Assembly: GCA_018402235.1 (NCBI GenBank)
Contig: JAGYJJ010000004.1
Coordinates: 201,256 to 265,255, forward strand
From: Candidatus Nanopelagicales bacterium
GTDB taxonomy: Bacteria; Actinomycetota; Actinomycetes; S36-B12
Direction: 5' to 3'
DNA length: 64,000 bases
In this document: piece after piece, positions 36,247 through 41,305 of the stretch
Layout of the letters: each line of letters begins with the position of its first letter
Position numbering within the stretch: the first letter of the stretch is position 1
Made by a program: the position numbers and the translations under genes
Notes under the pieces: model-generated
Seen by the model: only the letters and a program-made list of their open reading frames with translations
Database searches by the model: none
What the model was told of the DNA's origin: nothing

Positions 36247-36843
36247 CTAGGGGGTGACCTGCCCAGCCAGGAGCGCGGTGGCCGCCTCGGCGAGGGTGAC
36301 ACGCCTGTCCATTGCCGCCCGGCGCAGCCAAGCAAACGCCTCCGGCTCGCTCATCCCATGGCCGCCTTGGAGCAGATTCTTGGCCTGCTCCACAGCCTCG
36401 CGGGAGGCAGCTCGCTCGCCCAACGAGGAAACCTGCGCCTTCAGATCTTGGATCTGCTGCCACCGGGCCATCGCCAACGAGATGGCGGGGTCAAGGTCGG
36501 CCATCGTGAACGGCTTAACTACGTACCCCACGGCTCCGGCTTCCGCGGCCTTGGTCGAGATATCGCGCTGGCTGAAGGCCGTGACCATGACAACGGCGCA
36601 AAGGTCCTCCGCTGCAATCTCCGCAGCCGCGGATAGACCATCTCGTTCCGGCATCGCGATGTCGAGGAAGACCATGTCCGGGCTTTCCGATCGAACGAGG
36701 TCCACTGCCTGCTGACCGTTGAATGCCTCACCCACAACCTGATGCCCGAGTTCACGGACCATCTCGACCAGGTCCATTCGGATCACCGCTTCGTCTTCGG
36801 CAACGACGATGCGCAAAGACGCGCCCTCAAGAACTCCAGACAT
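36247..36843 (-). CDS. pdtaR: Response regulator with ANTAR RNA-binding output domain (PdtaR-like)
   Basis: ORF 36247..36843(-), 198 aa. REC domain (RIVVAEDEAVIRMDL...DMVFLDIAMPERDG...VVKPF) plus an ANTAR C-terminus (REAVEQAKNLLQGGHGMSEPEAFAWLRRAAMDRRVTLAEAA). Confidence 0.85.
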   Translation of the reverse strand: MSGVLEGASLRIVVAEDEAVIRMDLVEMVRELGHQVVGEAFNGQQAVDLVRSESPDMVFLDIAMPERDGLSAAAEIAAEDLCAVVMVTAFSQRDISTKAAEAGAVGYVVKPFTMADLDPAISLAMARWQQIQDLKAQVSSLGERAASREAVEQAKNLLQGGHGMSEPEAFAWLRRAAMDRRVTLAEAATALLAGQVTP

Positions 36844-36936
36844 ACCCCAAGACTACGGCGGACCGGTCAATGTCGTCTGCCACCACCTTGCACTGACTCA
36901 TCTCCCTTACTTTCGAAGACCGGGAAGGGAAAGTTG

Positions 36937-37437
36937 ATGCAAAAGATCACGAAATCAGTAACCACTATCGCCAGTATCGCCTTGACTGCGGTCATCTTGC
37001 TGACAGCCTGCGGTGGCGAACAACTTGCCGAGCAGATCGGTGAGCAGGCCATCAACGGCGAAGTTCAGATCGACGACGATTCGATCTCCATCACCGACGA
37101 AGAAGGCAACGAGTTCAGTGCAGGCGGGGGGACTGAGCTCCCCGCATCGTGGCCAGCGAACGTGCCGGCATTTCCGGACGGTGATCTAGTGGTCGCGACG
37201 TCTATGTCCGAAGGATCCGCAACGGCTCTGTGGGAGACAACCCAGCCAGTTGACGCCGCAGCCGCTACCTACGAAGCCCTTCTGGTCTCAAGCGGGTTCA
37301 CCTTGGAACAAGATGCTGTTATCGATGGCACCATCGTCCGCAGCTACCGGGGTGACACACACATTGCCAATATGACCGTGGCAAAAGCTAATGGGTCAAC
37401 CAACATCAGCGTCTCCGTAGTCACGGATTTACGATGA
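36937..37437 (+). CDS. Hypothetical lipoprotein
   Basis: ORF 36742..37437. ATG at 36937 after GGGAAGGGA. MQKITKSVTTIASIALTAVILLTACGG (lipobox LLTAC). No recognisable family. Confidence 0.6.
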   Translation: MQKITKSVTTIASIALTAVILLTACGGEQLAEQIGEQAINGEVQIDDDSISITDEEGNEFSAGGGTELPASWPANVPAFPDGDLVVATSMSEGSATALWETTQPVDAAAATYEALLVSSGFTLEQDAVIDGTIVRSYRGDTHIANMTVAKANGSTNISVSVVTDLR

Positions 37438-37516: not shown

Positions 37517-37590
37517 GCCCCGGTATCCCAACCGGTAGAGGAAGCGGTCTCAAACACCGTCCAGTGTGGGTTCGAATCCCACCCGGGGCA
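37517..37590 (+). tRNA. 74-nt tRNA with anticodon CAA (nominally Leu) on a class-I short-variable-loop body; CCA not encoded
   Basis: Cloverleaf read directly. Acceptor GCCCCGG/CCGGGGC (7 bp). D arm TCC-CAACCGGTAGA-GGA (has GG). Anticodon arm GCGGT-CTCAAAC-ACCGT (U33, CAA, A37). Variable loop CCAGT. T arm GTGGG-TTCGAAT-CCCAC. Discriminator A. Confidence 0.75.
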
Positions 37591-37684
37591 CGAGCGAGTG
37601 GAGCCGAGCTTGCTCGAGTTCCCGAGCGAGTGGCACGGGTTGAGCGAAGCGATCACCCGGGGCACGAGCGAGTGGAGCCGAGCT
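37580..37684 (+). repeat. 31-bp direct repeat (period 74 bp) duplicating the last 11 nt of the tRNA plus 20 nt of downstream sequence
   Basis: cacccggggcacgagcgagtggagccgagct occurs identically at 37580-37610 and 37654-37684. The core cgagcgagtgg appears a third time at 37623-37633. Confidence 0.9.
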
Positions 37685-37687
37685 GGC

Positions 37688-38104
37688 TCAACCTTGGACT
37701 CGCGCCCGCTCCACTCCGCTGAGAACCCCGTTCACGAATGCGGGAGATTCATCGGTCGATAACGAGGTCGCGAGCTCTACAGCTTCGGAAATTGCTACGC
37801 CGTTGGGGACGTCGTCGGCAAACAGGACCTCGAAAACCCCAATTCGAAGGATCGCACGATCGACGGCAGGCATCCGATCGACGGACCAACCCTCCGCAGC
37901 CGCCGCAATGGCCGCATCCACAGCCGCCTGATGTTCCACGATCCCTTCCACCAGAGCGACCGTATGCCCATTCAACGCTGGCTCACTGGCAGCCTCCCGC
38001 CGACGAATGTGATCGGCAAGCACCGATGGCACCGGGACGGATTTCGAGTCAGCCTCGAACAAGATGTCGAGGGCTCGCTTGCGCGCCTTGCTGCGGGCAG
38101 ACAT
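37688..38104 (-). CDS. nusB: Transcription antitermination factor NusB
   Basis: ORF 37688..38104(-), 138 aa. MSARSKARKRALDILFEADS...ISEAVELA. Adjacent to efp. Confidence 0.9.
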   Translation of the reverse strand: MSARSKARKRALDILFEADSKSVPVPSVLADHIRRREAASEPALNGHTVALVEGIVEHQAAVDAAIAAAAEGWSVDRMPAVDRAILRIGVFEVLFADDVPNGVAISEAVELATSLSTDESPAFVNGVLSGVERARVQG

Positions 38105-38668
38105 CTAGTCGTTCACGCGGCCAAGATATGAACCATCGCGCGTATCGACCTTGACCTTCGTATCCGACTCAACGAAGAGTGGTACTTGGATCTCAGCCCC
38201 TGTTTCGAGGGTTGCCGGCTTGGTGCCACCTGTGGACCGATCACCTTGGACGCCTGGTTCTGTGTAGGTGATCATCAGTTCGACCGACGCGGGCAGTTCG
38301 ACGATGATCGGCGTTCCCTCATGAACCGAAACATTGGCATTGTTGTTCTCAAGCAGGTACCTCTCCGCATCGCCTACCACTGCGCTAGGCACCGGCATCT
38401 GGTCGTAAGAGGAGGTGTCCATGAAGATGAAGTCGTCCCCGTCGCGATACAGGTATTGCATCTCTCGTCGATCCACTGTGGCTGTTTCAACCTTCACGCC
38501 CGCATTGAAGGTCTTGTCGACCACTTTGCCGGAGAGGACGTTCTTCAGTTTGGTGCGCACGAAGGCACCGCCCTTGCCAGGCTTCACGTGCTGAAACTCC
38601 ACGACGGCCCACAGCTGGCCGTCCAAGTTCAAAACTATGCCGTTTTTTAAGTCATTCGTGGTTGCCAC
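38105..38668 (-). CDS. efp: Elongation factor P
   Basis: ORF 38105..38680(-). GTG at 38668, preceded by GGGGAG, gives (M)[19 protein letters not shown]...[16 protein letters not shown]. Confidence 0.95.
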
Positions 38669-38706
38669 TGCACTCCCCAACTAGTCGAATCTTCGAGCTC
38701 TCGTTG

Positions 38707-40206: not shown

Positions 40207-41305
<1,099 letters not shown>

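What the first reader, a model, noticed from the sequence alone, without database searches (positions are those of the whole stretch)
37517..37590. tRNA with Leu anticodon CAA on a class-I (short variable loop) body
Seen in sequence: an essentially perfect cloverleaf with a 7-bp acceptor stem, GG in the D loop, U33, A37, a TTCGAAT T loop and discriminator A. The variable loop is only 5 nt and the D stem is 3 bp, giving a D arm that resembles Gln/Glu-type tRNAs. Established knowledge: bacterial tRNA-Leu are class II with a long variable arm, and bacterial LeuRS does not read the anticodon. Anticodon and body therefore disagree. Inference, three options: (a) an anticodon-switched class-I tRNA able to insert a non-Leu residue at UUG (identity/anticodon-mismatched tRNAs have been reported in some Streptomyces); (b) an inactive pseudo-tRNA or att remnant, noting the adjacent duplication of its 3' end; (c) an atypical but genuine Leu acceptor (A73 is a LeuRS identity element in E. 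coli).
Basis: partly seen in the sequence, partly recalled or inferred. Interest (0 to 1): 0.6.

Follow-up and report, generated by a model that had tools for sequence, protein, structure and literature searches.

The report
Short-armed actinobacterial leucine tRNA
This is a genuine, heavily used leucine tRNA that lacks the long extra arm of textbook bacterial leucine tRNAs; the same type was shown in 2019 to be charged with leucine in Streptomyces, so it is an ordinary member of a known but unusual actinobacterial tRNA family.

Summary
The tRNA at 37517-37590 (+) is real: ARAGORN calls Leu(CAA) and Rfam tRNA scores 55.5 bits.

It is not an anticodon/body mismatch. The D arm has the leucine layout, matching the long-armed Leu tRNAs of the same genome. 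It does not match that genome's Gln or Glu tRNAs.

The genome has long-armed Leu tRNAs only for GAG, CAG and UAG. The only CAA and UAA tRNAs are both short-armed, and there is one leuS.

TTG (814 positions) and TTA (112) align to leucine in a relative's orthologues 67% and 66% of the time. The CTN codons give 63-68%. UUR therefore still means leucine.

The same tRNA sits beside efp-nusB in 14 related actinomycete genomes. Thirty-six distinct family members show strong compensatory changes (17 of 20 pairs).

The kind is published. Fan et al. 2019 (PMC6614811) showed that the S. coelicolor type I tRNA-Leu(CAA), with a 5-nt variable loop, is leucylated by its single LeuRS.

Two things differ here. 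The UAA isoacceptor is also type I, and the LeuRS lacks the leucine-specific domain that the paper held responsible.

This scan has already reported the same thing on many other genomes. Low interest.

The parts
37517..37590 (+). Type I (5-nt variable loop) tRNA-Leu, anticodon CAA, 74 nt to the discriminator A73; CCA not encoded
   Evidence: ARAGORN. Rfam RF00005 at 55.5 bits. The sequence is identical in independent MAG loci L006 and L010, and differs by 1 nt in L001, L004, L008 and L009. Covariation in the family.
37580..37615 (+). Direct repeat, copy 1: the last 11 nt of the tRNA plus 25 nt downstream
   Evidence: the repeat finder family D1. The 20-mer recurs exactly twice in the window, against 0.03 expected. 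It is found only at this locus in the whole genome.
37654..37689 (+). Direct repeat, copy 2 (97% identical), ending at the nusB stop codon; origin unresolved (att scar or local duplication)
   Evidence: TRF reports no tandem array. Comparable extra copies of the tRNA 3' end occur in L012 and L019.
36937..37437 (+). Upstream neighbour: predicted lipoprotein (start at Met66 of the long ORF; lipobox LLTAC); no Pfam family
   Evidence: Translation. No Pfam match. A homologue exists in L003.
37688..38104 (-). Downstream neighbour nusB, convergent with the tRNA
   Evidence: Pfam PF01029 NusB, E 5e-31.
38105..38680 (-). efp (elongation factor P), used as the anchor to fetch syntenic loci
   Evidence: Pfam EFP_N, EFP and Elong-fact-P_C. 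80 related loci fetched.

Best explanation
The gene encodes a functional type I (short variable loop) tRNA-Leu(CAA). It is the cell's only decoder of the UUG leucine codon.

Inferred route: it is transcribed, processed, given CCA post-transcriptionally and charged with leucine by the genome's single LeuRS. That enzyme, like bacterial LeuRS in general, does not read the anticodon. It would rely on the tRNA core, which this tRNA shares with the long-armed Leu tRNAs: U8:A14, A15:U48, the Leu-type D arm with G18 G19 in the Leu register, and A73.

A sister type I tRNA-Leu(UAA) elsewhere in the genome reads UUA. The CUN box is served by three ordinary type II tRNA-Leu.

Shown here: the gene, its structure, its conservation and covariation, the absence of any long-armed CAA or UAA tRNA, the single leuS, and that TTG and TTA mean Leu.

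Inferred: expression, CCA addition and leucylation. These rest on the S. coelicolor biochemistry of Fan et al. 2019.
For: 1. ARAGORN and Rfam both call a complete tRNA.

2. Whole-genome ARAGORN finds 48 calls. Type II Leu tRNAs exist only for GAG, CAG and UAG. The only CAA and UAA tRNAs are the two 75-nt ones, at C3:238772-238846 (this finding) and C4:234296-234370.

3. Codon test against 400 kb of another actinomycete genome: 108 orthologue pairs, with the partner's own TTR codons excluded. TTG (n=814) aligns to Leu 67% of the time and TTA (n=112) 66%. CTG, CTC, CTT and CTA give 68, 67, 63 and 65%. A smaller test on the efp region against 80 loci gives TTG 61% and TTA 54% Leu.

4. The same tRNA lies next to efp-nusB in 14 related loci.

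5. A strict type I Leu(YAA) pattern hits 56 of 401 Actinomycetota genomes and never hits the reversed control.

6. On 36 distinct sequences, 99% of cells are paired and 17 of 20 pairs show double changes. None of 500 shuffles reaches this, and slid controls collapse.

7. The D-arm layout is the same as in the genome's own type II Leu(GAG) and Leu(CAG).

8. There is one leuS locus.

9. Published precedent: the S. coelicolor type I tRNA-Leu(CAA), with a 5-nt variable loop, is leucylated by its single LeuRS at kcat/Km 6.25 s^-1 uM^-1. Attempts to delete its gene failed (PMC6614811).

10. The window tRNA is 62-63/74 identical to type I CAA tRNAs in three 7.9-9.2 Mb genomes of genus g3, probably Streptomyces.
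Against: No direct evidence of expression, CCA addition or charging was obtained for this organism.

No sigma-70-like promoter or intrinsic terminator was found by the simple scans. These scans are weak for high-GC actinobacteria.

The LeuRS here lacks the leucine-specific domain. Fan et al. identified that domain as what lets ScoLeuRS charge the type I tRNA, so their mechanism cannot be transferred as it stands.

The assembly is indel-prone: leuS itself carries two frameshifts. Single-base errors are therefore conceivable in general. The tRNA sequence, however, is reproduced exactly in independent assemblies.

The sequences used for covariation were partly selected with a pattern that fixes the D loop, anticodon loop and T loop. 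Invariance of those loops is therefore not evidence; the stems were not constrained.
Confidence: 0.93

Rival explanations
1. Anticodon-switched class I tRNA that inserts a non-leucine residue at UUG, either as deliberate mistranslation or as a codon reassignment.
For: The body is class I in length, and bacterial LeuRS does not read the anticodon, so a foreign synthetase could in principle own it. Streptomyces is known to carry tRNAs whose anticodon does not match their identity (my own knowledge, not checked here).
Against: TTG and TTA positions align to Leu exactly as often as CTN codons do. No second residue is enriched; Val, Ile and Met appear at the same background levels. TTG is about a fifth of the Leu codons counted, and no other tRNA can read it. 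The D arm, A15:U48 and A73 are Leu-like. The homologous S. coelicolor tRNA accepts leucine in vitro (PMC6614811).
Confidence: 0.03
2. Inactive pseudo-tRNA or leftover attachment site of an integrative element, as suggested by the duplicated 3' end.
For: A 36-nt duplicate of the tRNA 3' end plus downstream sequence lies 74 nt away. Extra copies of the 3' end also occur in L012 and L019. The content between the tRNA and nusB varies among relatives.
Against: The full-length gene is intact and scores 55.5 bits. It is conserved with compensatory changes and is the sole CAA tRNA. No integrase was found in the inserts of L002 and L003; the only Pfam match there was an MFS sugar transporter in L002. 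Use as an att site would not make the tRNA itself inactive.
Confidence: 0.02
3. Assembly or sequencing error in the anticodon loop or variable region of an ordinary tRNA.
For: The assembly has frameshifts in leuS and aroB.
Against: Identical or 1-nt-different sequences with the same CAA anticodon and 5-nt variable loop occur in more than ten independent assemblies. A missing arm of about 12 nt is not a homopolymer indel.
Confidence: 0.01

Closest known systems
Type I tRNA-Leu(CAA) of Streptomyces coelicolor (Fan, Huang, Ji and Wang, Nucleic Acids Res 2019, 47:6369; PMC6614811)
   Same: Anticodon CAA. Variable loop of 5 nt: CCAGU here, ACAGC there. U8:A14, G18 G19 and A73 are present. It coexists with type II tRNA-Leu isoacceptors and a single leuS. 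It is the sole reader of a commonly used UUG codon. It is 62-63/74 identical to type I CAA tRNAs of large-genome actinomycetes that are probably Streptomyces.
   Different: Here position 48 is U, pairing with A15 as in E. coli tRNA-Leu, where S. coelicolor has C48. Here the UAA isoacceptor is also type I, whereas S. coelicolor bldA is type II. The LeuRS here is the short (839 aa) form without a leucine-specific domain, whereas ScoLeuRS is a long form whose LSD (I696-G733) was reported to confer type I charging. No biochemistry exists for this organism.
Mitochondrial type I tRNA-Leu(UUR), e.g. human mt-tRNA-Leu(UUR)
   Same: [quoted passage not shown] It is charged by a bacterial-type LeuRS. 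Human mitochondrial LeuRS charges the S. coelicolor type I tRNA (PMC6614811).
   Different: It is organellar, with a relaxed and less stable structure. ScoLeuRS does not charge it. No homology is claimed.
Identity/anticodon-mismatched tRNAs of Streptomyces (tRNA-ProX family with a dedicated ProRSx), cited from my own knowledge and from the wording of an earlier scan note
   Different: Those tRNAs come with a dedicated extra synthetase and cause mistranslation. Here there is no extra synthetase and the codon test shows plain Leu.
Type I leucine tRNAs in phage tRNA arrays
   Same: Leu anticodons (UAA, CAA, UAG) on bodies of class I length.
   Different: Those are phage-borne and act in hosts such as E. 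coli, whose LeuRS is reported not to charge the Streptomyces type I tRNA. This one is a chromosomal housekeeping gene.

Membership tests
Type I tRNA-Leu of Actinomycetes (Fan et al. 2019) | Leucine anticodon (CAA) on a complete cloverleaf | tested here: met
   ARAGORN Leu(caa). Rfam tRNA 55.5 bits, model positions 1-71.
Type I tRNA-Leu of Actinomycetes (Fan et al. 2019) | Short variable loop of exactly 5 nt including nucleotide 48 (the paper: 5 nt is the minimum for good charging) | tested here: met
   C44 C45 A46 G47 U48, read from the sequence. All 36 aligned family members have 5 nt. Requirement as stated in the paper.
Type I tRNA-Leu of Actinomycetes (Fan et al. 2019) | U8:A14 tertiary pair (identity element for ScoLeuRS) | tested here: met
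   T8 and A14 are invariant in alignment A1. A14 was fixed by the search pattern; T8 was not. Paper.
Type I tRNA-Leu of Actinomycetes (Fan et al. 2019) | Coexistence with type II tRNA-Leu isoacceptors and a single LeuRS gene | tested here: met
   Type II Leu(GAG), Leu(CAG) and Leu(UAG) are present. One leuS locus is found; the other hits are weak paralogous class I synthetases.
Type I tRNA-Leu of Actinomycetes (Fan et al. 2019) | Sequence relatedness to the Streptomyces type I tRNA-Leu(CAA) | tested here: inconclusive
   62-63/74 identity, with the same acceptor stem, anticodon loop and T arm, to type I CAA tRNAs in three 7.9-9.2 Mb genomes of genus g3. The tool does not name that genus, and the S. 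coelicolor sequence itself was not available in text.
Type I tRNA-Leu of Actinomycetes (Fan et al. 2019) | Accepts leucine from the cognate LeuRS | not testable with these tools
   Indirect only: TTG and TTA align to Leu 67% and 66% of the time, like CTN codons, and no other tRNA can read them.
Type I tRNA-Leu of Actinomycetes (Fan et al. 2019) | LeuRS with a Streptomyces-type leucine-specific domain (LSD, with L732/G733) that enables type I charging | tested here: not met
   The LeuRS here reads ...NQGMVIMEGSAMSKS..., with no LSD. Against T. thermophilus LeuRS, about 37 residues (597-633) have no counterpart. This is a feature of the enzyme model rather than of the tRNA family. It lowers 'works exactly as in S. 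coelicolor', not 'is a type I tRNA-Leu'.
Mistranslating / reassigned-codon tRNA | The codon read by the tRNA aligns to a residue other than the standard one in conserved proteins | tested here: not met
   TTG 67% Leu (n=814) and TTA 66% Leu (n=112), with the same profile as CTN codons.
tRNA pseudogene / att remnant | Degenerate structure, lack of conservation, or redundancy with an intact copy | tested here: not met
   Perfect stems, 99% of cells paired across the family, and no other CAA tRNA.

The most novel reading that the evidence does not exclude
In this freshwater actinomycete lineage the whole UUR codon pair is served only by short-armed leucine tRNAs, and they are charged by a LeuRS that has no leucine-specific domain. 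Recognition of type I tRNA-Leu here must therefore work by a route different from the LSD-dependent one proposed for Streptomyces. The short-armed form may be the ancestral or default UUR tRNA of much of the phylum rather than a Streptomyces curiosity.
Probability: 0.5. Interest if true: 0.3.

Novelty: new member of a known kind. Interest (0 to 1): 0.15.

Why it matters
It matters little for discovery. The phenomenon is published for Streptomyces, and this scan has already reported it on many actinobacterial and phage genomes.

It has three modest uses.
- It is a worked example showing that a class I-shaped Leu tRNA in Actinomycetota should be annotated as a normal tRNA-Leu, not as a pseudogene or a recoding signal.
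- It shows a genome where both UUR isoacceptors are type I with no long-armed backup.
- It shows that a LeuRS without the leucine-specific domain must handle such tRNAs. This qualifies the published LSD-centred model and gives a clean enzyme-tRNA pair for anyone studying LeuRS recognition.

Tried and rejected
1. I looked for a link between an LSD-less LeuRS and type I tRNA-Leu. A 145-aa LeuRS segment spanning the LSD site aligns end to end, over 405-447 nt, in all 150 listed matches from 401 Actinomycetota genomes. These include families with no type I pattern hit. Families with type I hits (f4, f41) have the divergent long enzyme. There is no association, so I dropped the idea.

2. I tested the att-site reading of the 3'-end duplication. 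No integrase was found in the inserts between nusB and the tRNA in L002 and L003; the only Pfam match was an MFS sugar transporter in L002. TRF finds no tandem array. The repeat is unique to this locus. The question is left unresolved.

3. My strict D-loop pattern missed the large-genome genus g3 even with 2 mismatches. A looser pattern found type I CAA tRNAs in 3 of 5 of those genomes. The figure of 56/401 is therefore a lower bound.

4. The promoter and terminator scan found nothing.

It was redone with blastp on ORF sets.

7. A simple regex for a 'Leu-type D arm' also hit Asn, Trp and Lys(CUU), which have a normal 4-bp stem. The distinguishing feature is the 17-nt arm with a 3-bp stem and the G18 G19 register, not the loop letters alone.

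8. The literature search for other descriptions of bacterial type I tRNA-Leu found only Fan et al. 2019. A mycobacterial genomics paper mentions a short-loop tRNA-Leu(UAG) in a tRNA gene cluster (PMC6582537).

Full report
**Observation**

The window holds exactly one tRNA by ARAGORN, at 37517-37591 (+), called Leu with anticodon CAA. Rfam's tRNA model matches 37517-37590 at 55.5 bits, against a gathering score of 29, over the full model.

Reading the sequence gives:
- a 7-bp acceptor stem GCCCCGG/CCGGGGC
- U8
- a 3-bp D stem UCC/GGA with C13 and A22 unpaired
- D loop AACCGGUAG
- anticodon stem GCGGU/ACCGU
- anticodon loop C-U-CAA-A-C
- a 5-nt variable loop CCAGU
- T arm GUGGG-UUCGAAU-CCCAC
- discriminator A

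CCA is not encoded.

The 36-nt duplicate of the tRNA 3' end plus downstream sequence (37580-37615 and 37654-37689, 97% identical) is real. The neighbours are a lipoprotein gene (lipobox LLTAC), nusB and efp.

**The tRNA in its genome**

The window is part of a 2.2-Mb, 61% GC, five-contig assembly. The closest efp loci are MAGs labelled Actinomycetes or Candidatus Nanopelagicales.

ARAGORN on the whole genome gives 48 tRNA calls. Long-armed (type II) tRNA-Leu exist only for GAG, CAG and UAG. The only tRNAs with CAA and UAA anticodons are two 75-nt genes:
- the finding itself, at C3:238772-238846
- a sister gene at C4:234296-234370 (-), 56/74 identical to it

Both UUR codons therefore depend entirely on short-armed tRNAs.

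**The D arm**

Compared with the genome's own tRNAs, the layout is a 3-bp stem, unpaired positions 13 and 22, and loop A14 A15 Y Y G18 G19 Y A G. This is the layout of its type II Leu(GAG) (GCG-G-AAUUGGCAG-A-CGC) and Leu(CAG).

The Glu tRNA has the same arm length, but its GG sits one position earlier and it lacks A15. Gln(CUG) has a 4-bp stem.

A15 with U48, and A73, also match the tRNA-Leu core elements listed for E. coli in the introduction of Fan et al..

**What UUG and UUA mean here**

I aligned stop-to-stop ORFs of this genome to those of 400 kb from another actinomycete genome, G350. I kept 108 best reciprocal pairs with at least 45% identity. I ignored positions where the partner itself uses TTA or TTG, so that nothing is assumed about that codon.

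| Codon | Positions | Aligned to Leu |
|---|---|---|
| TTG | 814 | 67% |
| TTA | 112 | 66% |
| CTG | 1139 | 68% |
| CTC | 1010 | 67% |
| CTT | 500 | 63% |
| CTA | 188 | 65% |

The minor residues (Val, Ile, Met) are the same for all of these codons.

A smaller test on the efp neighbourhood against 80 loci gave 61% Leu for TTG and 54% for TTA. That test carried some noise from wrong-frame ORFs.

UUR is leucine. TTG makes up about a fifth of the Leu codons counted, so this is a major tRNA.

**Conservation**

ARAGORN finds the same tRNA next to efp-nusB in 14 of the 80 efp loci. It is identical in L006 and L010. It differs by one base in several others. In L016, L023 and L072 it carries compensatory stem changes.

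A strict pattern (Leu-type D loop, YAA anticodon loop, 5-nt variable loop, T loop) hits 56 of 401 Actinomycetota genomes and never hits the reversed control. Both CAA and UAA versions are found, and several genomes have both. This is a lower bound. The large-genome genus g3 (probably Streptomyces) was missed by that pattern but has type I CAA tRNAs in 3 of 5 genomes under a looser pattern. These are 62-63/74 identical to the window tRNA.

On 36 distinct sequences, the cloverleaf is paired in 99% of cells, and 17 of 20 pairs show changes on both sides. No shuffle out of 500 reaches the observed values, and sliding the partners collapses the signal. The loops were fixed by the search pattern, so only the stems count as evidence.

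**Literature**

Fan, Huang, Ji and Wang (Nucleic Acids Res 2019; PMC6614811) describe exactly this kind of tRNA.
- S. coelicolor has one type I tRNA-Leu(CAA) with a 5-nt variable loop (ACAGC) beside four type II isoacceptors and a single LeuRS.
- The enzyme leucylates it with kcat/Km 6.25 s^-1 uM^-1, against 14.2 for type II UAA.
- U8:A14 and a 5-nt loop matter; A73 does not.
- E. coli LeuRS cannot charge it.
- Attempts to delete the gene failed.
- The leucine-specific domain (LSD, I696-G733) of ScoLeuRS confers the ability on another Streptomyces enzyme.

Two further searches found no other description of bacterial type I tRNA-Leu. A mycobacterial paper mentions a short-loop tRNA-Leu(UAG) in a tRNA cluster.

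This scan's own index holds 85 notes in at least 82 genomes on the same theme. All eight shown confirmed the observation and named the same paper as closest known; five concerned Actinobacteria and three phages. I reached the same reading independently before looking.

**The enzyme here**

The genome has one leuS, at C1:287542-290058 (-).

In the assembly it needs two frame corrections, about 1 kb apart:
- a missing base at about C1:289666 (...CAGCAAAAG|GCATCG...)
- an extra base at about C1:288628

aroB in the window is also shifted, near 40989. I therefore read these as indel errors of the assembly rather than biology, but I could not check reads.

The conceptual 839-aa protein aligns to T. 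thermophilus LeuRS at E 1e-253. It reads ...NQGMVIMEGSAMSKS..., and about 37 residues of the Thermus enzyme between QGMV and KMSKS (the LSD) have no counterpart.

A 145-aa segment across this site aligns end to end without insertion in all 150 listed matches from 401 Actinomycetota genomes. The LSD-less form is therefore the common actinobacterial one and shows no association with type I tRNAs. Families f3 (genus g3, which has type I CAA tRNAs in 3 of 5 genomes by the looser pattern) and f4 (strict-pattern hits in 9 of 9 genomes) have a divergent long enzyme.

The consequence is an inference. In this organism type I tRNA-Leu must be charged without an LSD, so the published LSD-centred explanation is specific to the Streptomyces-type enzyme.

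**The 3'-end duplication**

The 36-nt repeat is unique to this locus and is not reported as a tandem array by TRF. L012 has two further copies of its own tRNA 3' end plus downstream sequence. L019 has ccggggca three times.

The distance between the tRNA and nusB varies from 0 to about 2.4 kb among relatives. The inserts in L002 and L003 hold no integrase; the only Pfam match there was an MFS sugar transporter in L002.

An att scar and a local duplication both remain possible. Neither affects the intact tRNA.

**Verdict**

Options (a) and (b) are rejected on codon alignment, on the tRNA's sole-decoder status, and on conservation and covariation.

The object is a new member of a known kind. The differences from the published case are that the UAA isoacceptor is also type I, that position 48 is U, and that the LeuRS lacks an LSD. 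These are real but modest.

Noticed in passing
G000:C4:234296-234370 (-), outside the window: A second type I tRNA-Leu, anticodon UAA, 56/74 identical to the window tRNA and with the same D-arm layout and a 5-nt variable loop (ACAGU). It is the genome's only UAA tRNA. In S. coelicolor the UAA isoacceptor (bldA) is type II.
   Followed up: partly
G000:C1:287542-290058 (-) (locus L114), outside the window: The single leuS gene needs two compensating frame corrections about 1 kb apart: a missing base near C1:289666 and an extra base near C1:288628. The CP1 editing domain lies between them. This is probably assembly indels, but it was not checked against reads.
   Followed up: partly
G000:C1:288076-288510 (-), the LeuRS region around KMSKS: The LeuRS has no leucine-specific domain (QGMVIMEGSAMSKS). 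The same contiguous form is seen in all 150 listed matches from 401 Actinomycetota genomes. The large-genome families f3 and f4 have a divergent long form.
   Followed up: partly
window about 40213-41279 (-): The gene here matches single ORFs of relatives (L001, L003, L006) in two frames that switch at about 40989. It lies in the shikimate-gene neighbourhood and is probably aroB; I did not confirm its identity. The frame switch points to a frameshift in this assembly.
   Followed up: no
L012 (downstream of its tRNA, within about 240 nt) and L019: Relatives also carry extra copies of the tRNA-Leu(CAA) 3' end. L012 has two more copies of 'cccactcggggca' plus following sequence. L019 has 'ccggggca' three times in tandem. 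The content between the tRNA and nusB varies from 0 to about 2.4 kb among relatives; in L002 it includes an MFS sugar transporter.
   Followed up: partly
window 36247-36843 (-): A response regulator with an ANTAR RNA-binding output domain (PdtaR-like) lies just upstream of the lipoprotein gene. The long ORF call 36742-37437 overlaps it only because of an upstream in-frame extension.
   Followed up: no
G000:C1:343075-343148 and G000:C4:5016-5089: Two identical tRNA-Arg(UCU) genes sit near a contig end (C1) and a contig start (C4). A third, slightly different Arg(UCU) lies 1 kb further on, at C4:6092-6165. This suggests that the two contigs overlap or that there is a repeat at the junction.
   Followed up: no
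G000:C4:296801-296872 (-): tRNA-Gln(UUG) has a Glu-like body (UCCCCGG-UC-GUC-UAGUGGCAG-GAC), unlike the genome's tRNA-Gln(CUG). This may relate to charging by a non-discriminating GluRS in the transamidation route.
   Followed up: no
G000:C4:411858-411950 (-): ARAGORN calls a 93-nt 'tRNA-Val(aac)' with no convincing cloverleaf; it is likely a false positive.
   Followed up: no
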